Positions 5,640 to 56,118 of a DNA stretch of 64,000 nt are shown here, one piece after another. The notes under the pieces were generated by a model. That model saw nothing but the letters and a program-made list of their open reading frames with translations, ran no database searches and was not told the DNA's origin. Each line of letters starts with the position of its first letter. The stretch's first letter is position 1. The translations under genes and the position numbers were made by a program. Origin of the DNA: Dehalococcoidia bacterium (GTDB lineage: Bacteria; Chloroflexota; Dehalococcoidia; SZUA-161; JAUWZY01); contig DAOULY010000004.1 in NCBI GenBank assembly GCA_034414595.1, forward strand, positions 21,156-85,155. Direction: 5' to 3'.

Positions 5640-5648
5640 TGAACCTCT

Positions 5649-5705
5649 CCTTCTTCTCTTCTGATTTGCGAGAGACGATATACGAGAATTTGGAGAAGGT
5701 CAATA
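5649..5705. repeat. junction repeat R (integrase 5'-flank sequence), copy
   Basis: ccttcttctcttctgatttgcgagagacgatatacgagaatttggagaaggtcaata matches 54734-54799, 8363-8428 and 9910-9973. Confidence 0.85.
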
Positions 5706-5993
5706 GCAAATCAATCGTGTTATTGCAAATATTTAAGGGCGGAAATAAACCTTACTTGGTGCGTGGCAAGGATCCCTACATAGGAGTTGGATCAAATGAT
5801 TATATTCCTCTAAGACATGAACCGAATGAATTAATAATAAGAGGTAGTTGATTGCCTACGATCGATCATCAATGGTAACCTTCATAATTCAATCCTCTAC
5901 TGATTTCCATTTCGCCTCATTTTACCCCGCAACATTCGTTCCAACTTCTGGAAACCAGCTTTATCTGCTTGGCGCGGGATCACCTCACATTGA

Positions 5994-6593
5994 TCATTCA
6001 GCACTCATCAAGTGGTCAGACAATTCTTTATCGGCACTTGTTTCTCTCAACGCTTCCTCGCGAGCCTTAGTATCTTCCGCAATACCATCTTTCACCATCT
6101 GCCATACGGCTAACACATATGAGAGCCAGCCGAGATCATATGCCGATTCGGCTTGTTGATTATGATTTGTGTTATCGTCCAGTGCGTATTGTCGGCAAAA
6201 CCACTCTTTGTTCTCGTTTTGCCGATCCGCGAAAGTCTTAACACCGGGTAGATGAAGAGCTATACGGCTGCTCGGAGCCTGCTCTTGACGTTGGAGAACC
6301 TCGAGACGATGGAAAAGGTCTTCAAAGTCTTGTAGAGAGGCCAACTGAACCCACAGCTTCGCGTCTTCATGACCCAGTGCCTCCCAGTCGATTTCTTGTT
6401 CGCGGTATTCTTGCCTAAGCCGTTCCACCGCTACTTGCATTCCCTCTTCATCATTTGCTAGAGCACTTGCGCGCTCATATGCTTTAATGCGTGCTTGTAG
6501 AGCACCTCGACAGACTTGAGAGATGTTGATTGCGTTTCTAAAGGGTTTTAGACTGGCTATAAGATCATCGGGCACATTGATACCGATTCTCAC
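5994..6593 (-). CDS. hypothetical protein with ribbon-helix-helix-like N-terminus
   Basis: 199-aa ORF with GTG start and a GGAGG RBS 5 nt upstream. The N-terminal MRIGINVPDDLIASLK...ISQVCRGALQARI looks like a CopG/RHH strand-helix-helix. The remainder is unassigned. Confidence 0.5.
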   Translation of the reverse strand: MRIGINVPDDLIASLKPFRNAINISQVCRGALQARIKAYERASALANDEEGMQVAVERLRQEYREQEIDWEALGHEDAKLWVQLASLQDFEDLFHRLEVLQRQEQAPSSRIALHLPGVKTFADRQNENKEWFCRQYALDDNTNHNQQAESAYDLGWLSYVLAVWQMVKDGIAEDTKAREEALRETSADKELSDHLMSAE

Positions 6594-6857: not shown

Positions 6858-8315
6858 ATGGCGGTGCGAACTCGTGAAGAATATATTGAAAGCCTCAGGA
6901 GGCAAAGGCCTAAGGTTTATATGGCAGGAGAGAAAGTGGATAACATTGTCGATCATCCTGCCTTCCAAGCGGGGATAAACAATGCCGCGGTGACTTTCGA
7001 GCTAGGGCATGATCCCAAATACCAGGAGCTGGCGACGGTGATGTCTCCCCTTATCGGTGAGAGGATTAGCAGGTATACCCAAGTATATCAAGATGAAGGG
7101 GATGCCATCGCCACAGTAAAGCTAGCGAGAGGGCTTGCAGATTACTTATGCCCATGCTCCTACAGATGTCTCACTTCTAATCAGGTAAATGCTGCATGGG
7201 CACTCAGCTATGACATTGATCAGAAACATAACACTGAGTATCATCAGAGGGTTGTCAACATTGTAGAGGAGATTCAGAGAAACGATTGGATATTAGGGGG
7301 CTCATCAATAGATCCTAAGGGAGACAGAAGCTTAAGCCCTGGCCAGCAACTAGATCCGGATATGTATGTACGCGTAGTGGAGAGGAGGAAAGATGGCATA
7401 GTGTTAAGGGGAGCAAAGGCCAATAGCACGGCTGCCCCGTACACAAATATGGTAGGTATTATCCCAACGGGGCGGATTTCAGAAGCTGAGAAGGATTATT
7501 GTGTCGCCTGCTTTACCCCGGTGGATGCCGAAGGAATGACCTTCATATGTAGACCCCCAAACAGACCCCCTGAGCCAAAAGAGCTGGAGAATCCATTCAG
7601 CTCGAAACACGGTGGCCATGTGGAATGTATGCTAGTTCTCGACGATGTATTTGTACCTTGGGAGAGGGTCTTCATGTGCGGCGAGTATGAGTTCGCTCCC
7701 GCATTCGCGAGAATGAGGAACCCCGCACATGCCATGCATAAGTGTATGTGCCGATGGGTGGGTATAGACCTTGCCATCGGCGCTACTGCATTGATAGCTG
7801 ATTACAACGGCCTTGATCTAGAGAAAGCTCCTCACATATGGGATTATATCGTTGAGATGATCATGAGCGCCGAAATCATGTACTCGTGCGCACTTTCATC
7901 TGCAATGCAAGGCTCGAGACATGGTTCAGGAGTATATTTCCCAAAGGCAGCGCCAGCATCCGCTGGCAAGGTTTACGGAAGTAAGAAGATAGGCGAAGAG
8001 CATTTCTGGATGCAAGATGCCGCCGGTGGTTTAGTGGCGACGATGGCACCAGAGGAGGACTTCCAAAATCCAGAAACGGCAAAGATTCTGGAAAAATATT
8101 ATCAGGGGAGACAGGGCGTGCCAACAGAGCATAGAATACGCGCCATTAAGCTCATCGAGGACTTAATCGCATCTGATTTTGCCGCGTGGTATCAGGCCCT
8201 GTGTATTAGTGGAGGGGGGCCGCCGCTAAAGCACAAAAACGCCGTTATGGAGGAATATGACTTGGAGGAGAGTAAGAGGAAGGCAATGATCGCCGCTGGA
8301 ATAGTAAAGAAGTAG
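6858..8315 (+). CDS. 4-hydroxybutyryl-CoA dehydratase/vinylacetyl-CoA isomerase family protein (HpaB/AbfD superfamily)
   Basis: 485 aa. N-terminal REEYIESLRRQRPKVYMAGEKVDNIVDHP, PKGDRSL, KDGIVLRGAKA. Cys/His pattern CPCSYRC ... HAMHKCMC sits at the positions of the AbfD [4Fe-4S] ligands. Strong aaggagg RBS. Confidence 0.85.
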   Translation: MAVRTREEYIESLRRQRPKVYMAGEKVDNIVDHPAFQAGINNAAVTFELGHDPKYQELATVMSPLIGERISRYTQVYQDEGDAIATVKLARGLADYLCPCSYRCLTSNQVNAAWALSYDIDQKHNTEYHQRVVNIVEEIQRNDWILGGSSIDPKGDRSLSPGQQLDPDMYVRVVERRKDGIVLRGAKANSTAAPYTNMVGIIPTGRISEAEKDYCVACFTPVDAEGMTFICRPPNRPPEPKELENPFSSKHGGHVECMLVLDDVFVPWERVFMCGEYEFAPAFARMRNPAHAMHKCMCRWVGIDLAIGATALIADYNGLDLEKAPHIWDYIVEMIMSAEIMYSCALSSAMQGSRHGSGVYFPKAAPASAGKVYGSKKIGEEHFWMQDAAGGLVATMAPEEDFQNPETAKILEKYYQGRQGVPTEHRIRAIKLIEDLIASDFAAWYQALCISGGGPPLKHKNAVMEEYDLEESKRKAMIAAGIVKK

Positions 8316-8428
8316 TGACCTGCCCCCCCGAAAACGAGTCCAGGTCAAATGCTCTAGGTGTCTTTCTTCTCTTCTGATTTGCGCGAGACGATATACGAGA
8401 ATTTGGAGAAGGTCAATAGGGATGTGGG
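8316..8428. repeat. junction repeat L+R, copy
   Basis: L is 8316-8362, tgacctgcccccccgaaaacgagtccaggtcaaatgctctaggtgtc, with the inverted repeat TGACCTG/CAGGTCA. R is 8363-8428 and is identical in sequence to the integrase 5' flank. The repeat begins 1 nt after the stop codon of 6858-8315. Confidence 0.85.
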
Positions 8429-8434
8429 ATTACG

Positions 8435-8469
8435 ACTTAACAAGTGGTGTCATTATTAGGGCCGGTCAA
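8435..8469. repeat. junction repeat X, copy 2
   Basis: acttaacaagtggtgtcattattagggccggtcaa. Confidence 0.7.
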
Positions 8470-8565
8470 TGATTTGGCTTTTTTACAACTCATGTCTTTG
8501 CCATATATGAGTTTAGCCTCAAGTGGATTAATCGAGTTTTATTTCAACTTTGGTCGTCTTGCATA

Positions 8566-9795
8566 TTACAGATTGCCCATTAACTCCACAAGTAAATTCG
8601 TACAAACTTCACCGAAGTGTAAGTCATTTATATGCGCATCTAACTCTATAACCCTTACATCAGTATTGGTCAGATTCTTCTTTAGCGATTCTATGAACCC
8701 TTCATCAGCTATAGGATCATAGAAAAAACCCCCTTCTACATCGAACGGCGAGAGTCCGCGTTTCGGAAAGACAACCGCTGTTGGCGCTTTGGCTTCATTA
8801 AGCTTTTCAGCTACAAATTTCCCAGCTCTTTCTAACTCTTCTCTACTTGCTCTAAAATCAGTGAACAATGGACTCCACTGGTAGAAACTTCGGGTTTTAT
8901 ACATTGGAGGTATATTCCGAGGAGAGAAACTTAAAACGTCCATGAAGCCAGGTACAAATATATGAGGTGTGCCAGCCTTCACTATTGTCTCTAATCTTGA
9001 GATACCATAATTGGGTGCTGGGGATAGCTCTCCAACTATTAATTCTTGAATTATATCGTGCGTAATCATATTTAGAACAGCCATAATTGCACCTTCATTG
9101 ATGATGTCTTCCATGAATTTAGAGCCGATTCCCGCTGGTACAAAGATAACCATTTCATATCCTTTTTTCTCAAGTATTTCTTTAGCATAAAAAACAGCTA
9201 TTGTAGCACCCCCATACATAGTGGCACCTATTGCGTTTTTACCAGGCTCTACTTTCCTCCCTGCATTTTTAACCATGCCCGCTATGGCAGCAGCCGCATT
9301 ATCGAATGCGTTTTTTGTAAAGAAATTTAGAGGTTGCACATCACTAGGTAAGGCCAACACCATAACATCCCTTGTATGAACTATGTTTTCCATACCTGAA
9401 AGGCTCGCGACGGTGGTTATTATTAGCTTGGGAATGCCGAGAGGTAAGTGTTTCATTCCTGTTCCTGCCAAACATGCACCGTCATGACCTCCAACCGAGA
9501 TCACGCCATTAAATCTCCCTTCTAAATAAAACTTAGAAAGAATATTGGATATTCCTTCAGCCACTTTTTCCATTTGAACAATCTTAATTTCCTTTTCTAA
9601 GGCATCAACAGTATAGCCTATCGCTTTAGCAACTTCTTCCCTAGATATATCAGGGATTAAATGCCTAGGCCTGCCGCGCAAACTTGAATCCATAAGAAAT
9701 GTTTTCATACCCATTTCTTCTATCCTATTTTTAAGGTACTCTACTTCCTGCTCTTTAGTATCAAGTGTAGCAATAATGGCAACAACTTTATCCAT
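8566..9795 (-). CDS. UPF0261 / Tm-1-like ATP-binding domain protein
   Basis: 409 aa. The N-terminal MDKVVAIIATLDTKEQEVEYLKNRIEEMG is the characteristic start of the UPF0261 family. Two Rossmann-like halves. Confidence 0.8.
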   Translation of the reverse strand: MDKVVAIIATLDTKEQEVEYLKNRIEEMGMKTFLMDSSLRGRPRHLIPDISREEVAKAIGYTVDALEKEIKIVQMEKVAEGISNILSKFYLEGRFNGVISVGGHDGACLAGTGMKHLPLGIPKLIITTVASLSGMENIVHTRDVMVLALPSDVQPLNFFTKNAFDNAAAAIAGMVKNAGRKVEPGKNAIGATMYGGATIAVFYAKEILEKKGYEMVIFVPAGIGSKFMEDIINEGAIMAVLNMITHDIIQELIVGELSPAPNYGISRLETIVKAGTPHIFVPGFMDVLSFSPRNIPPMYKTRSFYQWSPLFTDFRASREELERAGKFVAEKLNEAKAPTAVVFPKRGLSPFDVEGGFFYDPIADEGFIESLKKNLTNTDVRVIELDAHINDLHFGEVCTNLLVELMGNL

Positions 9796-9863
9796 GAGCT
9801 TCCTTTCTCGACTTCTCCATTAAGGATAGAATAAGCCCTGGTCATAATTCTCGCAAGCTAGAT

Positions 9864-9973
9864 TGACCTGCCCCCCGAAAACGAGTCCAGGTCAAATGCT
9901 CTAGGTGTCCTTCTTCTCTTCTGATTTGCGCGAGACGATATACGAGAATTTGGAGAAGGTCAATCGGGATGTG
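9864..9973. repeat. junction repeat L+R, copy
   Basis: Same L element (9864-9909, one C shorter in the C-run) followed by R (9910-9973). Confidence 0.85.
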
Positions 9974-10132
9974 GTATAGAGTTTAGCTGTATTAGCTGTA
10001 AAAGATCAATTAGACGAAAAACAAACATGGTGCTATAATTTTGGCTACTAACAAAATGGAGAGTAGTTGTGGTAAAAACTCAAGAGGGTAAAAAGAAAGT
10101 ATACGTTCATGAACATACAAAACGAAAGCTAG

Positions 10133-10158
10133 GTGGTATCATTATTGGAGGCTGGTCA
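10133..10158. repeat. junction repeat X, partial copy 3
   Basis: gtggtatcattattggaggctggtca, just upstream of the 10181 start. Confidence 0.55.
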
Positions 10159-10180
10159 TGGCAAAAGGGGGGGTGTTCTG

Positions 10181-13100
10181 ATGAATAAAGTCATAGTACA
10201 CTTATCAGATCTTCATTATCGCCGTGGATGGATTGAGGAGCAAGGTGTTGTATTAAATGGGTTTTTTAAAGATTTGGGCAACCAATTGGCTAAGATACAT
10301 AACGCCGACTATTATTTGGTTTTTTCGGGGGATATTGTCCAATCTGGCGACGATTCCAACAGCTATGACGAATTTATCAGTAATTTTGATAATAAATTAA
10401 CCGAACTTGGAATTCCGATTAGTAACAGAATCTGTGTTCCGGGAAATCACGATGTCTCAACAGAGATAGTAGAGTTAGACAAAGTTACTCATGAAGGCGT
10501 GATATCTCAGAGGTTGGATGAGACATGTTTTAACGATTATATTTCTAATCCATCAAATATACTGACGGGTAAATTCCAGAAGTATAGTAAATTCGAACAA
10601 GCATTTGCAGAGTATGGCTTATCTTGTCCTACTACAATAACGGGAACGGGATGGACAATCGATGATAGCATTGGTATCTATTGTTTAAACACTGCCTTGT
10701 GTAGTATCGGCGGTTCGGCAAAAGGCGGCGAAGTTCACCCTGATAGGGGACGTTTGGCAATAGATACGCGCAAATTACATGCTTGGAACCAAGAGTGTCA
10801 ACATACTGTGAAAATACTTGTAATGCATCATCCACTCGATTGGTTAATTCCTTGGGCAAAGCAAGAACTTGAGACCATATTACGCAAAGATTTCGCTTTA
10901 TGTCTTTCTGGCCACGCACACGGTCAACATGTATTTCATTCAATTAACAAATATGGCTCTCTTGTCCAATGTTCTGCACCACCATTGTTTACAAAGAAAG
11001 CTGGCGAATTAGGATACTCGTTTATTAATATTAGCCCAGCAATAGGAGTGGTTGATATCACGTATAGACAGTGGACTAAACATCAAAGTTTTGTTGTAGG
11101 AGGGAGTTTCTCTGATTCCGACGATGGAAGAGTAATTATAGAAAAACGCGAAGAATCGCCCATTGATCGACTCCTTACAAAAAGATTGGAAGACGCGTTG
11201 GTGTCTTTTGCTTATCAACCCAAAATATGGATTGAACCGGTTCTAGCTAAGCGTCCAGAATATGCTCACACTGAAGGTAATAGAGATGATCCCAAGATTG
11301 AGGTATCTGATTTGGTTTCAAAGCCAAGATCAACGATAGTAAAAGCACCTCCTCAATTTGGATTAACTTGTTTAGCTCATTACCTTATCAAAAAAGCATG
11401 GCAAGACCAAGAATCAAAATGGCTATATCTTGATTCAAAGTATATGAAGTCTAATTACCCTGATGTTAGAAAATATATAGAGAGCGAACTCAGAAGCTTT
11501 GATTGTGAAATGCAAGATATTAAATGTTTAGTTCTTGATTCGTGGACTGATCGTATAAAAACATCCTTAACACTCCTGCAAAACGTTATTAAGCTATCTG
11601 GAGATGTTCCAGTCATCATTATGCAGGCTACTGATGACATTACCTTTGCTGACGAATCAAGTCAAACGCTTCATGGTAGAGAGTTCGACATTCTTTATTT
11701 ATGGGCACTAACTCGCGGGAATGTACGTAAGGTTGTCACTGATTATAATGAGAAAAAGCACATAGGGGATGATGATGCGGTCGTATCAAGGGTTGTATCA
11801 GACCTGGAAATGCTTAACCTTCATCGAACCCCGTTGAATTGCCTGACTTTGCTAAAGGTGTCTGAAATTGATTTTGACGAAAGCCCTGTAAATCGTACCG
11901 AAATGATAAAAAGAGTCCTATTTCTTATTTTTAATACCGAAATTCCTACGTATAAAAGCCGCCCAGACTTGAAGGATTGTGAGTATGTATTGGGGTATTT
12001 TTGTGAGATCATGCTCAGGCAGAGCCAATATTTTTTTACAAGGGATGACTTTTTAAATACTTTGGGGCAATTCTGTAAGGATAGGGTTATTGACCTTGAT
12101 GTCGACGTTCTATTCGATATGTTATATGATCATAACATTTTAGTTGATCACGGAAGTATCTTTAATTTTCGGTTTGCTTACTGGATTTATTACTTCGCAG
12201 CACACAGAATGTATCATGACAAGGATTTTGCTGATTTCATTTTCAAGGATATGCGATATGCAAACTATCCAGAAATGATTGAGTTTTATACAGGGATCGA
12301 TCGTCGCCGTGAAGACGCCTTAACTGTTTTAATAAAAGATATTCAAATAAATCGCAAAAAAGTGCAGAAAAAGAGTGGCCTTCCCAATGAATTAAATCCG
12401 TATCGACTTGCACGATGGAAGCCATCTGTCAAAACACTTGAACGGATGCATAGTGAAATCAGCAATGGCGTGAAGGATTCAAATTTACCTAGCTCAGTCA
12501 AAGATCAATATGCAGATCGTCAGTATGAACCAGCACGACCTTATTATCAGGGTGTTAGAGATATTTTTTACGAGTACTCTTTACTGATACTGATGCAAAC
12601 AGTGAGAGCGGCATCAAGGGCACTTCGAAATAGCGATTATGTGTCTCCGAATATTAAGCGTCAGTTACTTGATGAAATCGGAGGTGCGTGGAAACAAATA
12701 TTGCAGGTACTAGTGGCTTTGACACCATTACTTGCCACGAAAAAAAAAGCTACATTCGATGGGGCAAACTTCCTCTTGTTAGGAAATTTCGGTGACACGC
12801 CTGAAGAGAGATTCAACATGATATTGAGTGAGCTTCCTAATAATGTCGTTACATGGTTTAAAGACGATCTGCTTTCACATAAAATGGGGCCTTTGCTGAT
12901 CGAGCGATCGAATGAAGAGAGCGATGATCTTAAAAAGCATAATTTTGTATTGTTATTGATTAAGCAAAGGCCTCGCAATTGGGTAATGCAGGTTCGAGAA
13001 TATATCAAGTCCATTTCGAAGAATTCATTTTACCTTATGGACGTATATGTACAGCTCTATATTGAATATGAATATAGTTTTACATCTCCTGATACTTTAC

Positions 13101-13216
13101 GTGAAATAAAGTACCTTATTAAAACGGCTGCAGCTAAACAATTTTTTGGAGCTATTGGGGAAAAGTCCAGAGGCAAGGTTCCAGACGCAGCACTGCCAGA
13201 GAGGTTGGTTGAGTGA
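10181..13216 (+). CDS. calcineurin-like metallophosphoesterase fused to a STAND/AAA-like NTPase module with degenerate P-loop
   Basis: All five MPE motifs are present: LSDLHY, FSGDIV, PGNHD, VMHHPL, SGHAHG. The central IVKAPPQFGLTCL sits where a Walker A would be (Gly to Ala, Lys to Leu). A CLVLDSW Walker-B-like strand follows, then a long helical C-terminal region. The ATG at 10181 follows aaaggggggg. The longer ORF from 10133 starts inside repeat X. Confidence 0.8.
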   Translation: MNKVIVHLSDLHYRRGWIEEQGVVLNGFFKDLGNQLAKIHNADYYLVFSGDIVQSGDDSNSYDEFISNFDNKLTELGIPISNRICVPGNHDVSTEIVELDKVTHEGVISQRLDETCFNDYISNPSNILTGKFQKYSKFEQAFAEYGLSCPTTITGTGWTIDDSIGIYCLNTALCSIGGSAKGGEVHPDRGRLAIDTRKLHAWNQECQHTVKILVMHHPLDWLIPWAKQELETILRKDFALCLSGHAHGQHVFHSINKYGSLVQCSAPPLFTKKAGELGYSFINISPAIGVVDITYRQWTKHQSFVVGGSFSDSDDGRVIIEKREESPIDRLLTKRLEDALVSFAYQPKIWIEPVLAKRPEYAHTEGNRDDPKIEVSDLVSKPRSTIVKAPPQFGLTCLAHYLIKKAWQDQESKWLYLDSKYMKSNYPDVRKYIESELRSFDCEMQDIKCLVLDSWTDRIKTSLTLLQNVIKLSGDVPVIIMQATDDITFADESSQTLHGREFDILYLWALTRGNVRKVVTDYNEKKHIGDDDAVVSRVVSDLEMLNLHRTPLNCLTLLKVSEIDFDESPVNRTEMIKRVLFLIFNTEIPTYKSRPDLKDCEYVLGYFCEIMLRQSQYFFTRDDFLNTLGQFCKDRVIDLDVDVLFDMLYDHNILVDHGSIFNFRFAYWIYYFAAHRMYHDKDFADFIFKDMRYANYPEMIEFYTGIDRRREDALTVLIKDIQINRKKVQKKSGLPNELNPYRLARWKPSVKTLERMHSEISNGVKDSNLPSSVKDQYADRQYEPARPYYQGVRDIFYEYSLLILMQTVRAASRALRNSDYVSPNIKRQLLDEIGGAWKQILQVLVALTPLLATKKKATFDGANFLLLGNFGDTPEERFNMILSELPNNVVTWFKDDLLSHKMGPLLIERSNEESDDLKKHNFVLLLIKQRPRNWVMQVREYIKSISKNSFYLMDVYVQLYIEYEYSFTSPDTLREIKYLIKTAAAKQFFGAIGEKSRGKVPDAALPERLVE

Positions 13217-13221
13217 GACGA

Positions 13222-13317
13222 TTAGCCTCCCAGTCTATCCACCGGACTATATTTCTTGTGTGCCTCCACTGCATCATAGCATCTCACTGCCTGGCAATAC
13301 TGATTATTAGTCATCAT
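13222..13317 (-). pseudogene. tyrosine recombinase C-terminal remnant (32 codons incl. stop)
   Basis: Minus strand reads MMTNNQYCQAVRCYDAVEAHKKYSPVDRLGG*, matching MMTNRYCQAVGCYDAIESHKKYSPVDNLSFK* of the intact gene, including the catalytic-Tyr region. Confidence 0.8.
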
Positions 13318-13319
13318 GC

Positions 13320-13344
13320 CCTGCCCCCCCGAAAACGAGTCCAG
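13320..13344. repeat. junction repeat L, left part only
   Basis: cctgcccccccgaaaacgagtccag, joined directly to the integrase C-terminal remnant. Confidence 0.7.
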
Positions 13345-13420
13345 TTAAAATTTTAGACTATGGACTAAAGGAAATGGGGACGCAATGGGAGGAGTCAAGC
13401 AAAAACCTGTTATTACTAAA

Positions 13421-13462
13421 TGGCAGCGGAGGGATTCGACCCCCCGACCAAAGGCTTATGAG
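13421..13462 (-). other. tRNA(CAU) 3'-half-like copy (anticodon loop to acceptor end); candidate att site
   Basis: Minus strand ctcataagcctttggtcggggggtcgaatccctccgctgcca, versus ctcataagcctttggtcgcaggttcgaatcctgccgctgcca in the tRNA at 56007-56078. The sequence 5' of the anticodon loop does not fold as a tRNA. Confidence 0.65.
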
Positions 13463-13752
13463 ATTAGCCCTCGAAAGGCTGGCAACCGCTTGCCTCCTTT
13501 CGAGGTACATTATCACAGGATTTCCCGGATCAGTCAACATCTGATCCTAGATACTTCTTCGTGCATAAATATGAGACTACGATATCTAATACATAGAACT
13601 CCAGACACGATTTTCAAGGCGGTGTTTCCCTTCGCCTAGATTGGCCTCGGTTGACCTTACACAGTTAGCAGATCGTGTGATGTACTGTGGAGCAGATAAG
13701 AGATGACCAGCTCATCTCCCTTTATCCGCCTGCAGCTTTTCACTCCGGTCTA

Positions 13753-14252
13753 CACCATCTCCAGGTTCGAGGATATATTAGGGGATATAGGAAGGACAGC
13801 TATGTCCGTCAAAGGTCGGTGACTCCCAAACTGTGGAGGAGGAGGGAGTATATCTCCAATGCTTCTCCACGACACTCAGTTGAAGTATTCAGTGGTAGTT
13901 ACATTTCCACCGTCGTCCTCGTCATTTCCCTTTGCTACTAATGCGAGCTTTTAGCTCGTCCTTACGGATATCATTTTCGGCATCACTGTCCGCCATTCGG
14001 GTCCTGCATCACCTCCGGGTTTGAGGATGTATCAGAGGATAAAAGGAGGATAGCTATGTCCGTCAAAGGTCGGCGATCCCTAAAGTCTGGTCAGGAAGAG
14101 GGTCAGGGTGAGGAGGGTCAGGAGGAGGGTCAGGGTGGAGGAGGAGCTTTCACCACCACCACCTCCCCCTCCACCTGTCACTTCGTTGTCAATGCGAGCT
14201 TGTGCTTCTCCCTGCGTATACGACCTTTCGCGTCGTTGTCCGCATCTCCGTG
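13753..14252. repeat. two tandem ~250-bp units with a G/A-rich low-complexity tract
   Basis: Unit 1 is about 13753-14006 and unit 2 about 14007-14252. Both contain ...gaggat.t.t.a.ggat...agctatgtccgtcaaaggtcgg... and ...aatgcgagctt... The units differ by indels that break every reading frame. Confidence 0.6.
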
Positions 14253-15020
14253 CGATAGCGCGTTCAAGATACGAACTGATCCCCTAGACTTGAGTGCTAT
14301 AGTGATACCTTGCGCAAGTCTCCGGATCCCCGATGCATGGCAACTCAGCTACGATGGAGCTAGTACCACAAGTATACCATCAAGCAGAGGTTGTAGCAGC
14401 AGCATGCTGGATAGATGTCGGATTCATGACGCATGGCCCTGGGAAAGCGTCCTATCGCTCTTCACGAGGTGAGCAATGACTTCATGAACGTAGGAGCAAC
14501 CTGGTTGCCTTCCGCAAGACCGTAACTTGCCTGGCTGATGCCGGTAGGTCGCTGTCGCCCCATTGAATAACGGTGTTCGGGCTCACTTTGGGAACGAATT
14601 CTACCATGGGGTAGGTTCGCTTTCTACATATCCCCACATTCAGGATGCCTTGGTGTTCTGTACATGCCCATATTCGTAATGCTACCCCAGTATTTCCAAT
14701 ATTACAGCCAATGCTACCCAAACCCAGATTGGGAGCGTGTCCTACGGTAGATGAGATTACCACTCCTATCTATGGTAATCTAGAAACAGGAACAAGCTAG
14801 TTCTACCCAGGAATCAGGTCGTTTCAGTGACCATGCTCTCACTCCAGCACAGGAATATGGTGCTGAACATTACCGGCTGTACTTTTCGATGTTTTGTATT
14901 CTAGCCAACATCAGGACCACGAAAGAAGTCATGGCTATGTGGTCTTTTGGCAGTCAACAGCAGTTTTTTCTCATGGCATTTTTAAGGCTTCTAAAAAGTG
15001 GTAAGGCTTTTTGGAATGGT

Positions 15021-16439
15021 TTAGGGGATGAGACCCTTCTTAGAAAGGAGCGGCTTGAGATCTACCATGTGGCCATCTAAAGCCGCATCCTTCTCGCTTA
15101 GACCCAGGGCTAGTGCCATGAGCTGAGTGAAGTAGAAGATCGGCATCCTATACTCGTGGCCTTCCCTCCAACTCAGTGCTGGTTGCCGCCAGTCGAGGTT
15201 AGCGTTGCACATCGGGCAGGCGATCACTATGGCATCCGCACCCACTGCTTGGGCGTTGTCCAATATCCGCTGAACGAGATTGAGGCACTTGTCGGTATCG
15301 ATAATGCTCAGACTGCCGCCACAGCAGTCGGTCTTGAAGGACCAATCAAGCGCATCAGCACCGCACGTCTCCATCAAGTGGTCCAAATTCATTGGGTATT
15401 CCGGGTGCTCAGCTCCGGTCACCTCCGGTGGCCGTGTGAGCAGGCAGCCGTAGTAGCACACTACCTTCAATCCAGAGAGGGGCTTCTTCACCTGCTTGGC
15501 TAACACCGACAGCCCCACGCGTTTGACGAAGGTATCGATCGCATTCTCAATCTCCACCCCACCCTCATACTCATAGCCTAACTGCTTAGTGACATTATCT
15601 TTCACCGAGGGGTCAGCATTGATGTTGTAGGCAGCGTGCTTGAGCCTTGAGAAGCACATGGCGCAAGGAACAGTCACTGCTTTGTGGCCCTTGCTTTCGA
15701 TCAGGGCCAAGTTCTTCAGAGACAGGGCAGTAGCCAGTTCCTGAGAGTTCCAGTGGGCTGGGGTGCTCCCACAGCAGAGCCAGCCTTTGGGTTCCTCAAG
15801 CTCCAACCCCAGGGTATTGGCCACGGCACGGAAGGATCTATCGTACTCGGAAGCACTGGCGTGAAGAGAGCAGCCGGGATAATAGGCAACAGCATTGGCA
15901 AGAGGCTGTGAGCCCTCTTTGCGGCGAAGTTTTCGGGGGTAGCCAGCTCTTTTAGGGGTGAGTTTGAGACGCCCGGCGCTGAACATCTTCATGCCGAGGA
16001 AGGCATCTTTAAAGGGCTTCCTCCTTCTCAGATTCATCTCCAGCATAAGACCCAGCTCGTACATTCTCCCCCACCAATTGATGGAGCGCAGGCCGGCATT
16101 GATAAAAGCTGTTGAGGAGGGCATTATGGGATCGATCTTCTGCTCTTGGGCTATGATCTTCAGGGTATCAATGACCTGAGCGATATCAATGCCATTGGGA
16201 CAGCGAGTAGTGCAGGTTTGACAACTAGCGCAGAGCCAGATGGCCTCGGAACGCAGCACCTCCTCCAAACGCCCCAGTTGCAGCAGCCGCATCATCTGGT
16301 TCGGCTTCAGATCCATCTCCGAGGAAAGGGGACAACCCATGGTGCAGTTTTTGCACTGATAGCAAAGTAGAATGTTTGCGGCACATCTTTCCCTCATCAA
16401 GTCCGCTGCGCTCTTGGCTCCTGATGCTGCTGTAGTCAT
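15021..16439 (-). CDS. hdrCB: heterodisulfide reductase HdrC-HdrB fusion protein
   Basis: N-terminal 2x[4Fe-4S] motifs (CYQCKNCTMGCP, CASCQTCTTRCP) followed by two CCG domains (YYPGCSL...WLCCGS; CYYGCLL...DCCGGS). Start set at the ATG at 16439, 6 nt after GGAGG. The track ORF extends to 16505, into metF. Confidence 0.9.
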   Translation of the reverse strand: MTTAASGAKSAADLMRERCAANILLCYQCKNCTMGCPLSSEMDLKPNQMMRLLQLGRLEEVLRSEAIWLCASCQTCTTRCPNGIDIAQVIDTLKIIAQEQKIDPIMPSSTAFINAGLRSINWWGRMYELGLMLEMNLRRRKPFKDAFLGMKMFSAGRLKLTPKRAGYPRKLRRKEGSQPLANAVAYYPGCSLHASASEYDRSFRAVANTLGLELEEPKGWLCCGSTPAHWNSQELATALSLKNLALIESKGHKAVTVPCAMCFSRLKHAAYNINADPSVKDNVTKQLGYEYEGGVEIENAIDTFVKRVGLSVLAKQVKKPLSGLKVVCYYGCLLTRPPEVTGAEHPEYPMNLDHLMETCGADALDWSFKTDCCGGSLSIIDTDKCLNLVQRILDNAQAVGADAIVIACPMCNANLDWRQPALSWREGHEYRMPIFYFTQLMALALGLSEKDAALDGHMVDLKPLLSKKGLIP

Positions 16440-53779: not shown

Positions 53780-54724
53780 CTATTTGAAGCTGAGATTATC
53801 CACCGGACTATATTTCTTATGGCTCTCGATAGCGTCATAGCATCCCACAGCTTGGCAATACCTGTTCGTCATCATCAGCGTAGTATGCCCCAGTAACCTT
53901 TGCAGCATCAGGCTATCCCCTCCATTCTTCAGCCACGTGGTTGCGAAAGTATGCCGAAGCAAATGGGGATGGACATTAATGCCTGTCCTCTTCCTGAGCT
54001 TAATGAAGAGTGTCTCAACGCTACTGTCTTTCAGGGTAACTCCCTTCTCTGTCAGCCATAAGCTCTCATTGTGGCCATTTACCTTGCTTCGAAGTTTCAA
54101 GTATCTCCTTAATGCCTTCCATGTCGTATTGCCGTAGCGGACCACCCTTTCCCCTGTCTTTCCGTCAACCCTCATTAGCTGCTGTTCCATATTGATGTCC
54201 GCCATCTTAATATTGAGCAGTTCCCCTAACCGTAACCCGCAGTCTACCAGAACCAGGATTATGGCCTTGTTCCTTATCCCATCAAAGGTATCCGGAAGGC
54301 TTGATATTAGTTGATTTATCTCGGTACTAATAAGGGATTTTACAACCTTCTTCTCTGCCCTCGGTACTTTTATCTTAACCAGAGAATTGGTTTCCAAAAT
54401 GCCTTCGTTAACCGACCAATTTAACAAGGCTGATAATGCCCGATAGTATTTCTGGACAGTGGTGGAGTTCATAGGCTTCATGGCTCGTGGACAGGTACTA
54501 TTGAAGCGGTGAGGTGTTTCCCTGAGATAAGCCAGGAACTCTCTTAGGTGGTTTGTAGTTATGGCTGAAATATCATCCGGCCAGTTGTAATTAGTGGCAT
54601 ACCATAGAAAGCCTTTGAGCTTGTCCGAGTAACATTCAATCGTTCCGTAAGATTTCCCCTCTACCTTGCAGGACAGCAGGAAGCCATCAATAGCTTGCTT
54701 TATTGTTGTAACTTTCTTAGACAT
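53780..54724 (-). CDS. tyrosine site-specific recombinase/integrase (XerC/D-like fold)
   Basis: 314 aa. N-terminal SAM-like core-binding domain. Catalytic signature DCGLRLGEL (Arg), HLLRHTF (His-x-x-Arg), LLGH, TNRYCQ (Tyr). Only intact copy in the window. Confidence 0.9.
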   Translation of the reverse strand: MSKKVTTIKQAIDGFLLSCKVEGKSYGTIECYSDKLKGFLWYATNYNWPDDISAITTNHLREFLAYLRETPHRFNSTCPRAMKPMNSTTVQKYYRALSALLNWSVNEGILETNSLVKIKVPRAEKKVVKSLISTEINQLISSLPDTFDGIRNKAIILVLVDCGLRLGELLNIKMADINMEQQLMRVDGKTGERVVRYGNTTWKALRRYLKLRSKVNGHNESLWLTEKGVTLKDSSVETLFIKLRKRTGINVHPHLLRHTFATTWLKNGGDSLMLQRLLGHTTLMMTNRYCQAVGCYDAIESHKKYSPVDNLSFK

Positions 54725-54733
54725 TGAACCTCT

Positions 54734-54799
54734 CCTTCTTCTCTTCTGATTTGCGCGAGACGATATATGAGATTCCGGAGAAGGTCAATAGTGATGTGG
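54734..54799. repeat. junction repeat R, reference copy in the integrase 5' flank
   Basis: ccttcttctcttctgatttgcgcgagacgatatatgagattccggagaaggtcaatagtgatgtgg begins about 10 nt upstream of the integrase ATG. Confidence 0.85.
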
Positions 54800-54931
54800 T
54801 TAGGAGTTTTTGGTGCAAATCAAATATAAATAGAGTTCGCTTCAGAGTTGATTTTTACGTGATATAATTTATCCTCTAAGAGCTAATATTAATCATCCAA
54901 GCTCAGTGGATTTGCGAGAAGGAGTAACAAC

Positions 54932-55977: not shown

Positions 55978-56006
55978 CTTCGTACCTCCTTATTCCTTAA
56001 TTTTAA

Positions 56007-56078
56007 TGGCAGCGGCAGGATTCGAACCTGCGACCAAAGGCTTATGAGTCCCTTGCTCTACCCCTGAGCTACGCTGCC
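56007..56078 (-). tRNA. tRNA with CAU anticodon (Met, or Ile2 if lysidinylated); CCA not encoded
   Basis: Minus strand GGCAGCG-TA-GCTC-AGGGGTA-GAGC-A-AGGGA-CTCATAA-GCCTT-TGGTC-GCAGG-TTCGAAT-CCTGC-CGCTGCC-A. This is a cloverleaf with a 7-bp acceptor and a GTTCGAATC T-loop. There is one A:G mismatch at 31:39. Confidence 0.85.
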
Positions 56079-56118
56079 ACATTTTGAATATAGCAATCAC
56101 AGATATTTGATGTCAACC

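What the first reader, a model, noticed from the sequence alone, without database searches (positions are those of the whole stretch)
10181..13216. Metallophosphoesterase fused to a STAND-like NTPase with a disabled P-loop, carried as a single-gene module
The N-terminal ~330 aa have all five calcineurin-like phosphoesterase motifs intact. The next ~250 aa have the strand-loop-helix layout of a STAND/AAA NTPase. At the Walker A position the sequence reads KAPPQFGLT, so the Lys is replaced by Leu. A Walker-B-like CLVLDSW follows, and then ~450 aa of helical, repeat-like sequence with no match I can name. An effector enzyme plus an NTPase-like switch plus a C-terminal sensor region, in a lone AT-rich gene bracketed by integrase scars, is the layout of many single-protein anti-phage or conflict systems such as the Avs/NLR-like families. 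I do not recognise this particular combination as a named system.
Basis: partly seen in the sequence, partly recalled or inferred. Interest (0 to 1): 0.6.

Follow-up and report, generated by a model that had tools for sequence, protein, structure and literature searches.

The report
Lysine-less phosphoesterase-NLR-like antiphage gene
This horizontally acquired gene encodes a one-protein, NLR-like candidate phage-defence sensor with a phosphoesterase "warhead"; it is related to the tested E. coli system DS-8 but sits in a large branch that has replaced the ATP-binding lysine DS-8 needs.

Summary
Window 10181-13216 (+) is one intact 1011-aa gene. It has a complete calcineurin-like metallophosphoesterase domain, a NACHT-like NTPase fold and a helical C-terminal region. 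The Walker A position reads APPQFGLT, with Leu in place of Lys.

The combination is not unnamed. It matches PADLOC candidate PDC-S60 (E 4e-57). It is a distant relative of DS-8, a validated E. coli single-protein metallophosphatase-NACHT defence in which the Walker A mutant K375A abolishes protection.

The Lys-to-Leu change is not decay. It is shared by 129 of 130 representatives that have the motif (29-58% identity). The Walker B Asp, the P-loop Gly and Thr/Ser, and an RTP motif stay conserved. dN/dS is about 0.27.

The same lysine-less module is fused elsewhere to DUF4062 NADase, SIR2, trypsin, PNP, CHAT, kinase and lipase-like domains, which is typical effector swapping.

Close homologues lie in a defence island and in a primase-bearing mobile element. 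A DUF4062-fused relative lies inside a type I restriction-modification operon. No partner gene is conserved.

The gene has the lowest GC of the genome and was not found in 60 relatives. It lies between junction repeats related to an integrase/tRNA-Met site.

This scan had already flagged the same lysine-less clade in several other genomes.

Verdict: a new variant of a known kind. No function was tested.

The parts
10011..10039 (+). Promoter-like site (TAGACG, 17 nt, TG-extended TATAAT), about 140 nt upstream of the start
   Evidence: Consensus scan, 10 of 12 matches. This is a pattern match only.
10164..10173 (+). G-rich ribosome-binding site, 7 nt before the ATG at 10181
   Evidence: Read directly from the sequence.
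10181..13216 (+). Whole gene: 1011-aa metallophosphoesterase + lysine-less NACHT-like module + helical C-terminal region (stop codon included)
10181..11140 (+). N-terminal calcineurin-like metallophosphoesterase domain (residues 1 to about 320), the predicted effector
   Evidence: Pfam PF00149, E 2.9e-12. All five metal-binding motifs are invariant in the family. Structural matches are YydB, 5'-nucleotidases and Mre11. There is a weak match to the DS-9A phosphoesterase model.
11312..11710 (+). P-loop NTPase-like nucleotide-binding domain (residues about 378-510)
   Evidence: AF2 secondary structure. Foldseek matches to NLR NACHT, ORC and RFC. PDB profile match to RFC3, E 0.03. Alignment to canonical NACHT/AAA_14-positive relatives.
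11345..11368 (+). Walker A position, APPQFGLT (residues 389-396), with Leu395 in place of the lysine
11525..11545 (+). Walker B strand CLVLDSW (residues 449-455); D453 is invariant
11714..12220 (+). Helical and winged-helix domains after the NBD (residues about 512-680). They include the invariant RTP motif (549-551) and the Pfam nSTAND_NTPase4 match (617-673, nt 12029-12199).
12221..13213 (+). C-terminal all-helical region (residues 681-1011), the predicted sensor. It is not covered by the DS-8 model.
   Evidence: AF2 model. The DS-8 model match ends at residue 677. The region is conserved in the family. No internal repeats were found.
9863..9984 (+). Left junction repeat: a 35-nt hairpin element (9863-9897) plus a copy of the integrase-upstream stretch (9908-9984)
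13236..13462 (+). Right junction. It comprises an integrase-3'-end-like stretch (13236-13317), the 35-nt element (13317-13351) and a tRNA-Met 3' fragment (13419-13462).

Best explanation
The gene encodes a single-protein, NLR-like (STAND-type) anti-phage or anti-mobile-element sensor. It belongs to the DS-8 / PADLOC PDC-S60 superfamily.

Proposed mechanism (inferred, not shown):
1. The helical C-terminal region recognises an infection-derived trigger.
2. The NACHT-like module then drives a conformational change or oligomerisation.
3. This switches on the N-terminal metallophosphoesterase.
4. The phosphoesterase most likely hydrolyses nucleotides (dNTP/dNDP, NAD+ or signalling nucleotides), which stops phage replication or aborts the infection.

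This protein belongs to a large, old sister clade in which the Walker A lysine is replaced by leucine. The rest of the pocket is kept: P-loop Gly, Thr/Ser, Walker B Asp and the RTP motif. The switch therefore probably works without canonical lysine-dependent ATP hydrolysis.

The gene arrived by horizontal transfer. It sits as a lone cargo gene between remnants of integrase/tRNA-Met junctions.
For: Family assignment:
- PADLOC PDC-S60, E 4.1e-57 over residues 5-926.
- NCBIfam DS8_antiphage, E 2e-43 over residues 7-677.
- DS-8 is validated. Its mutants D52A and N84A (phosphoesterase) and K375A (NACHT) all abolish defence.

Fold:
- AF2 model with pLDDT 86.3.
- Foldseek matches to NOD2, NAIP/NLRC4, NLRP9, NLRP3 and NLRC4 at E 4e-8 to 1e-6. 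Matches to YydB and 5'-nucleotidases cover the N-terminal domain.

Lys-to-Leu is an evolved state:
- L395 is present in 116 of 118 close homologues.
- Of the top 150 representatives, 130 have the motif. Of these, 129 lack Lys and 1 has it, while the Walker B Asp is invariant.
- Canonical relatives have GK[T] at the aligned position.
- dN/dS of the NTPase-like domain is 0.27, the same as the phosphoesterase domain.

Effector swapping on the same module:
- Partners are DUF4062, Trypsin_2, SIR2_2, PNP_UDP_1, CHAT, Pkinase, DUF676, SMEK_N and an FAD oxidoreductase.
- These variants are nested among phosphoesterase forms on the module tree.
- DUF4062 is an experimentally shown NADase defence effector.

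Context:
- A DUF4062 paralogue lies between hsdS and hsdR, next to a nucleotidyltransferase + S-4TM pair.
- A 78% homologue lies between a Cap4-nuclease-NACHT gene and a GHKL ATPase gene.
- An 88% homologue lies in a Prim-Pol/D5 element.
- No neighbour family recurs in more than 9 of 52 loci.

Horizontal transfer:
- Lowest GC in the genome.
- Not found in 60 related genomes.
- Found in 151 of about 185,000 species genomes across many phyla.

Effector chemistry:
- A related Calcineurin-CE phosphoesterase depletes dNTPs and cleaves NAD+ in vitro.
Against: - No experiment exists for this gene or for any lysine-less member that I could find.
- The scores to the DS-8 model (148 bits against a cut-off of 790) and to PDC-S60 (192 bits over about 920 residues) show only distant relationship.
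- DS-8 needs its Walker A lysine, so extrapolating its mechanism is uncertain.
- In this genome, and in several others, the neighbours are metabolic genes, not defence genes.
- Defence-island enrichment was not computed systematically.
- The substrate of the phosphoesterase is unknown. The DS-8 authors propose a cyclic nucleotide, and a nuclease activity is also possible.
- The trigger is unknown.
Confidence: 0.65

Rival explanations
1. The defence role is the same, but the NTPase-like pocket is still a working ligand switch. It binds ATP/ADP or another nucleotide-like ligand without the lysine, and that binding gates activation. 'Disabled' would then be wrong.
For: The motif is among the best conserved stretches of the protein. 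G394, T/S396, D453, R549 and P551 are invariant or nearly so, even across effector-swapped relatives. One clade member has GKT and a canonical relative has GRT at the same place, so the site tolerates basic residues.
Against: Loss of the Walker A lysine normally cripples nucleotide binding and hydrolysis in P-loop NTPases (established knowledge), and K375A kills DS-8. No compensating invariant basic residue was identified in the domain: K388 is only 62% conserved.
Confidence: 0.3
2. The phosphoesterase domain acts as a DNA/RNA nuclease (Mre11/SbcD-like) that degrades phage or host nucleic acid, rather than as a nucleotide-pool or signal hydrolase.
For: It matches a PADLOC 'Effector / Endonuclease' model, E 5e-13. 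It weakly matches SbcD. Mre11 is among the structural matches.
Against: Better structural matches are YydB and the 5'-nucleotidases UshA/CD73. The best PDB sequence matches are Lmo2642 and GpdQ-type phosphodiesterases. The related Calcineurin-CE effector acts on dNDP and NAD+. The DS-8 authors align their domain with SMPDL3A.
Confidence: 0.2
3. It is a housekeeping or regulatory phosphoesterase (for example in signal transduction or metabolism) with no role in conflict.
For: Several homologues lie among metabolic genes, and in this window the neighbours are metabolic.
Against: There is no conserved neighbour or operon. It was not found in 60 relatives. Its GC is extreme for the genome. The N-terminal enzyme is exchangeable for NADases, proteases, a kinase and PNP. 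It is homologous to a validated defence protein.
Confidence: 0.05
4. It is a decaying relic: the P-loop mutation marks an inactive gene on its way to loss.
For: It lies between decayed junction repeats in a patchwork, AT-rich segment.
Against: The 1011-codon frame is intact. It is 88% identical to a homologue, with dN/dS 0.29 in all three domains. The same Leu is conserved across hundreds of sequences in many phyla.
Confidence: 0.03

Closest known systems
DS-8 (E. coli WP_032203427.1, working name MNAC; DefensePredictor, Science 2026, PMC13092281; NCBIfam NF053861)
   Same: Both are single proteins of about 1010 aa. Both have an N-terminal metallophosphatase with the same catalytic motifs (DS-8 D52/N84, here D51/N89) followed by a NACHT-type module. 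Homology is detectable over residues 7-677. DS-8 is experimentally shown to block phage.
   Different: The score is far below the family cut-off (148 against 790 bits). The Walker A lysine that DS-8 requires (K375A is dead) is Leu here. The C-terminal third (residues 678-1011) is not matched by the DS-8 model. I could not obtain the DS-8 sequence itself for a direct alignment.
PADLOC PDC-S60 (phage defence candidate, single gene; models PDLC05051 for the phosphoesterase form and PDLC05050 for the DUF4062 form)
   Same: PDLC05051 matches residues 5-926 at E 4e-57. The two PADLOC models mirror the phosphoesterase/DUF4062 effector alternation that I see.
   Different: PDC-S60 is a candidate without published tests, as far as I could find. 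The Klebsiella plasmid relative scores 402 bits against PDLC05051 and has the canonical GKT, while this clade scores about 190 bits and lacks the lysine.
Avs / bacterial NACHT (NLR-like) defence proteins
   Same: They share the tripartite logic: swappable N-terminal effector, central STAND module, C-terminal sensor. They are also single-gene, horizontally mobile and sometimes in defence islands. DUF4062/NIR is a proven effector of an Avs2 protein.
   Different: No PADLOC Avs or bNACHT model matched. The NTPase belongs to the nSTAND4-type lineage. The Walker A lysine is absent. The sensor is not a recognisable TPR/LRR/WD40 array.
Inactive STAND modules (iSTAND, iSTAND2, inactive nSTAND2 partner) of Kaur, Burroughs, Iyer and Aravind (eLife 2020/2021; PMC8195603)
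   Same: They set a precedent for STAND modules with eroded NTP-binding motifs in predicted conflict systems. Those modules are proposed to act as invader (nucleic-acid) sensors.
   Different: Those are components of multi-gene systems (MoxR-vWA ternary systems, or a two-gene nSTAND2 pair). Here the lysine-less module is fused directly to the effector in a lone gene. Apart from the lysine, its pocket residues are conserved rather than eroded.
PUA-Calcineurin-CE-HAD (DS-9-type) nucleotide-depletion system (bioRxiv 10.64898/2026.01.15.699771)
   Same: It uses a conflict-type calcineurin-like phosphoesterase as effector. The domain here weakly matches the DS-9A model (E 1.7e-9). The known chemistry is dADP to dAMP, and NAD+ cleavage in vitro.
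   Different: That system has a different sensor (a PUA-like domain binding m6-dAMP), a partner HAD phosphatase and filament assembly. Here there is no PUA domain, no HAD gene and an NLR-like switch instead.

Membership tests
Calcineurin-like metallophosphoesterase (PF00149) | Five metal-binding motifs: DxH, GD, GNH[DE], H, GHxH | tested here: met
   D10/H12, G50-D51, G88-N89-H90-D91, H216-H217 and G244-H245-x-H247 are all invariant in 53 homologues. Pfam E 2.9e-12, above the gathering score.
STAND / NACHT-like P-loop NTPase | Walker A [AG]x4GK[ST] | tested here: not met
   The sequence is APPQFGLT, with Leu395 at the Lys position. It aligns to GVKEAGKT and GNRESGKT of canonical relatives. Leu is conserved in the clade.
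STAND / NACHT-like P-loop NTPase | Walker B hhhhD | tested here: met
   In LVLD453, the Asp is invariant in 53 homologues and in all representatives that have the region.
STAND / NACHT-like P-loop NTPase | NBD + helical + winged-helix fold resembling solved NLR/AAA+ structures | tested here: met
   Foldseek matches to NOD2 (E 3.9e-8), NAIP/NLRC4, NLRP9, NLRP3 NACHT and NLRC4, followed by ORC and RFC. Pfam nSTAND_NTPase4 matches residues 617-673. A relative aligned along the whole region matches Pfam NACHT and AAA_14.
STAND / NACHT-like P-loop NTPase | Nucleotide binding or hydrolysis that controls oligomerisation | not testable with these tools
   This needs biochemistry. The model coordinates could not be inspected.
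DS-8 (NCBIfam NF053861, equivalog) | Score at or above the curated cut-off (790 bits) | tested here: not met
   148.3 bits, residues 7-677 only.
DS-8 (NCBIfam NF053861, equivalog) | Catalytic phosphoesterase residues required for defence (D52, N84) | tested here: met
   The equivalent residues D51 and N89 are present and invariant. The equivalence rests on motif position, not on a direct alignment with DS-8.
DS-8 (NCBIfam NF053861, equivalog) | Walker A lysine required for defence (K375) | tested here: not met
   Leu395 is at that position.
DS-8 (NCBIfam NF053861, equivalog) | Protection against phage | not testable with these tools
PADLOC PDC-S60 | Match to model PDLC05051 or PDLC05050, as a single gene | tested here: met
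   E 4.1e-57, with profile positions 3-936 of 1027 covered. No conserved partner gene was found. PADLOC's own thresholds were not available to me.
Avs (AVAST) families | Match to Avs-type STAND models | tested here: not met
   No Avs model appears among the PADLOC hits at E <= 1.
iSTAND ternary systems (MoxR-vWA-iSTAND) | Neighbouring MoxR AAA+ and vWA genes | tested here: not met
   The neighbours here are UPF0261, an HpaB-like gene and Hdr/MetF genes. No MoxR or vWA family was among the ten most recurrent neighbour families that were annotated, from 52 loci.

The most novel reading that the evidence does not exclude
A widespread, ancient clade of NLR-like bacterial immune proteins has replaced the Walker A lysine by leucine. 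The clade has at least 130 clusters at 50% identity, spans more than ten phyla and uses at least ten different effector domains. It keeps the rest of the nucleotide pocket under purifying selection. That would mean a STAND switch that assembles without canonical ATP binding or hydrolysis, or one that reads a different ligand. This mode of NLR activation has not been described experimentally, and it contrasts directly with the lysine-dependent relative DS-8.
Probability: 0.4. Interest if true: 0.65.

Novelty: new variant of a known kind. Interest (0 to 1): 0.5.

Why it matters
STAND/NLR proteins from bacteria to humans are thought to depend on nucleotide binding at the P-loop for activation, and the tested relative DS-8 loses defence when its Walker A lysine is mutated.

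A large natural clade keeps the fold, the effector logic and the purifying selection but carries Leu at that position. This offers a ready-made comparison. It asks whether NLR-type assembly can be nucleotide-independent, or gated by something else.

It also adds a metallophosphoesterase 'warhead' whose substrate is unknown to the growing set of nucleotide-targeting immune effectors.

For annotation, it shows that 'metallophosphoesterase family protein' genes of about 1000 aa in many phyla are probable defence genes.

Tried and rejected
- Rfam, at gathering and at permissive thresholds, found no RNA family in 8250-15100.
- Pfam on nine stop-to-stop frames of the 1.8-kb gene-poor stretch 13217-15020 found nothing (a tenth query in the same call, the 5994-6593 ORF, gave only sub-threshold hits). 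A whole-genome Phage_integrase search found no hit within window 8000-16000. So there is no recognisable integrase pseudogene.
- PDB sequence-profile searches gave only phosphoesterases for the full family. For the shared module they gave marginal RFC3 hits (E 0.03).
- I looked for C-terminal repeats with self-BLAST and hhalign between segments and found none.
- I tried to obtain the DS-8 sequence. Only its accession and mutants were found in the supplement, so there is no direct alignment.
- The Nicastro et al. 2023 paper on Calcineurin-CE is not held in the library.
- Swarozyc and Evangelion (DUF4062 systems) were checked as possible tested relatives of the sensor module. Their AUX regions are small HTH/winged-helix or compact domains, not this STAND-like module.
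- A first dN/dS run without alignment was wrong because of compensating indels, and was redone on a codon alignment.
Full report
**1. What is there**

The ORF containing the finding runs 10133-13216 on the + strand. The ATG at 10181 is preceded by a G-rich Shine-Dalgarno sequence 7 nt upstream. It gives a 1011-aa protein, P0002. A promoter-like site with an extended -10 lies at 10011-10039.

- Pfam finds Metallophos at residues 5-248 (E 2.9e-12) and nSTAND_NTPase4 at 617-673 (E 8e-10).
- An AlphaFold2 model built on 53 homologues has mean pLDDT 86.3.
- The model shows an alpha/beta phosphoesterase domain to about residue 320.
- The P-loop-type domain has strand 385-389, a loop, then helix 395-408, and its Walker B strand is 447-455.
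- Helical and winged-helix domains follow to about residue 680.
- An all-helical region runs to the C-terminus.

**2. The observation**

All five phosphoesterase motifs are present and invariant in the family.

The sequence at the Walker A place is APPQFGLT. BLASTP against a Klebsiella grimontii plasmid relative puts that relative's GVKEAGKT exactly on it. The Klebsiella protein matches Pfam NACHT and AAA_14 over the same region. A Sphingomonas relative has GNRESGKT and a Sinorhizobium relative has SPQEYGRT at the same columns. The first-position Ala is permitted by the usual pattern, so the only deviation is Lys to Leu. The Walker B Asp (D453) is invariant.

The C-terminal region is helical, but I found no sequence repeats.

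**3. Not decay but a clade character**

- Among 118 full-length homologues (45-88% identity), G394 is invariant, L395 is present in 116 and T/S396 in all. The motif is one of the best conserved stretches of the protein.
- I searched 1.84 billion representative proteins with residues 323-1011. This gave 681 representatives at E <= 1e-3 and 208 at E <= 1e-30.
- In the best 150 (29-58% identity), the 'lysine' position is Leu in 112. It is Ala, Ser, Gln, Ile, Phe or Met in 17, and Lys in a single protein. The Walker B Asp never changes.
- Against the 88%-identical homologue, dN/dS is 0.26 for the phosphoesterase domain, 0.27 for the NTPase-like domain and 0.30 for the C-terminal region.
- An Arg-Thr-Pro motif (549-551) in the helical domain is conserved, and the RTP motif is also present in the Klebsiella relative.

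**4. What it is related to**

- PADLOC's candidate system PDC-S60 matches at E 4.1e-57 over residues 5-926.
- NCBIfam's DS8_antiphage model matches residues 7-677 at E 2e-43. The score is 148 bits against a cut-off of 790.
- DS-8 is a single-protein metallophosphatase-NACHT system from E. coli, validated in the DefensePredictor study. Mutation of two phosphoesterase residues, or of a residue critical for the NACHT ATPase, abolished defence. The supplement names these mutants as D52A, N84A and K375A.
- Foldseek against the PDB gives animal NLR NACHT modules as the best matches for the central part: NOD2, NAIP/NLRC4, NLRP9, NLRP3 and NLRC4. ORC/Cdc6 and RFC come next.
- For the N-terminal domain it gives YydB, the 5'-nucleotidases UshA/CD73 and Mre11.

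So this is a distant member of a known superfamily. It sits in a branch that differs in a residue its tested relative needs.

**5. Effector swapping**

A Chryseobacterium plasmid protein is 37% identical over residues 323-993. It also has the lysine-less loop (APSEFGLT), but it carries DUF4062 instead of the phosphoesterase. PADLOC has a second PDC-S60 model for that form.

Among representatives with non-phosphoesterase N-termini, Pfam finds the following:
- DUF4062 (15) and Trypsin_2 (12);
- single cases of SIR2_2, PNP_UDP_1, CHAT, protein kinase, a DUF676 alpha/beta-hydrolase, SMEK_N and an FAD/NAD(P) oxidoreductase.

I built a FastTree of the shared module with three canonical outgroups.
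- The deepest branches are phosphoesterase forms.
- DUF4062 forms appear at least twice.
- The trypsin forms appear once.
- The SIR2 and lipase-like forms are nested right next to the window protein.
- Some rows labelled 'other' are truncated ORFs, so the count of 18 changes is an overestimate.

DUF4062 has recently been shown to be a TIR-like NADase effector of phage defence. This pattern is the signature of an immune sensor with interchangeable warheads.

**6. Context and mobility**

In this genome:
- The gene has GC 38.6% against 53.4% for the genome, lower than every other 3-kb window.
- It was not found in 60 related genomes.
- The left flank is 9863-9984. It holds a 35-nt hairpin element that occurs seven times in the genome, plus a copy of the stretch just upstream of the intact tyrosine integrase ORF at 53780-54724.
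- The right flank is 13236-13462. It holds a stretch 79% identical to that integrase's 3' end, the 35-nt element again, and a 44-nt copy of the 3' part of tRNA-Met 56006-56079.

They are junction repeats, not recognisable integrase ORFs.

Elsewhere:
- The 88% homologue lies in an element with HTH_17 and a Prim-Pol/D5 primase.
- The 78% homologue lies between a 1970-aa Cap4-nuclease-NACHT gene and a GHKL ATPase gene.
- The DUF4062 paralogue is embedded between hsdS and hsdR, next to a nucleotidyltransferase + S-4TM pair.
- Other homologues sit among unrelated metabolic genes.
- Two clade motifs pick out 151 relatives in about 185,000 species genomes, spread over many phyla.
- In 52 loci with at least 5 kb on both sides, no neighbour family recurs in more than 9. 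The recurrent ones are generic families such as histidine kinases and ABC transporters, plus a Schlafen/AlbA_2 protein. A small Trypco1 gene recurs in three loci; the N-terminal form of those three loci was not determined.

The phosphoesterase form is therefore a single-gene system.

**7. How it probably works**

Shown: the domain order, the intact phosphoesterase site, the NACHT-like fold, the lysine-less but conserved loop, effector exchange and horizontal mobility.

Inferred: the C-terminal region senses a trigger, the central module changes conformation or oligomerises, and the phosphoesterase is unleashed.

By analogy with the Calcineurin-CE effector, the substrate is most likely a nucleotide. 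That effector converts dADP to dAMP and cleaves NAD+ in vitro. The 5'-nucleotidase-like structural matches point the same way. A nuclease activity, and the cyclic-nucleotide idea of the DS-8 authors, remain open.

The lysine is missing but the Gly, Thr/Ser, Asp and RTP residues are kept. So the pocket is either a structural hinge that no longer needs ATP, or it still binds a ligand in a non-canonical way. I cannot decide between these here.

Inactive STAND modules have been predicted before in multi-gene conflict systems. They have not been described as a directly effector-fused, single-gene clade sister to a tested lysine-dependent system.

**8. Earlier notes of this scan**

I ran the checks above first. 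Afterwards I found that the scan had flagged the same kind of protein in several other genomes. Those notes reached the same reading: DS-8-like with a lysine-less P-loop. The junction repeats of this window were noted separately. My results agree with these notes. They add the effector-swapping tally, the module tree and the neighbourhood survey.

**9. Verdict**

The gene is real, intact and horizontally acquired. It is very probably a single-protein NLR-like defence gene.

The kind is known (DS-8, PDC-S60). The lysine-less switch is a variant that is worth testing.

No function was tested here.

Noticed in passing
window 8316-8350, 9863-9897, 13317-13351; also G000 C1 (two copies), C2 and C16: A 35-nt element with a 7-bp stem (TGACCTG ... 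CAGGTCA) around a C-rich loop occurs seven times in the genome, always with a sharp left boundary. In four copies it extends into a roughly 60-nt unit ending in a G-run. One copy lies about 100 nt from a tRNA-Met gene. It has no Rfam match.
   Followed up: partly
window 5648-5706, 8361-8427, 9908-9984 versus 54733-54809: There are four copies (88-98% identity) of the roughly 70-nt stretch immediately upstream of the intact tyrosine integrase ORF 53780-54724 (minus strand). Three of them separate unrelated single genes: an HpaB-like gene, UPF0261 and the phosphoesterase-STAND gene. This looks like an array of old integration junctions at tRNA-Met.
   Followed up: partly
window 13217-15020: This 1.8-kb stretch has no credible ORF or Pfam match. 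It contains two diverged units of about 250 bp (13741-13846 and 13994-14102, 78% identical). A 364-bp segment (14534-14897) is 75% identical to another place in the genome (C2:268115-268478).
   Followed up: no
L017:5491-8115 (Chryseobacterium sp. SNU WT5 plasmid NZ_CP041688.1): The DUF4062 version of the lysine-less module is inserted between hsdS and hsdR of a type I restriction-modification operon. A nucleotidyltransferase + S-4TM effector pair is inserted with it.
   Followed up: yes
L074:9229-9570 and two other loci: A small Trypco1 (trypsin-co-occurring domain 1) gene recurs in the neighbourhood of three relatives; in L074 it lies just upstream of the match. If these are the trypsin-fused forms, which was not checked, that form may be a two-gene system, unlike the phosphoesterase form.
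   Followed up: partly
P0149; L019:5929-9153 (Sinorhizobium meliloti plasmid): One member inside the lysine-less clade has GKT at the Walker A place, a possible reversion. One canonical-type relative has GRT (Arg instead of Lys).
   Followed up: no
window 12206-12220 (residues 676-680): A conserved R-M-[HY]-H-D motif lies at the end of the winged-helix domain. R676 and M677 are invariant in the clade and absent from the canonical relatives. Its position recalls the MHD motif of plant NB-ARC proteins. This is only a resemblance.
   Followed up: no
Foldseek match 9a6c_B (B. subtilis YydB in the YydD-YydB model): The best structural match of the phosphoesterase domain is the uncharacterised B. 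subtilis YydB, which pairs with the ATPase-like YydD. This may be another phosphoesterase + ATPase conflict pair.
   Followed up: no
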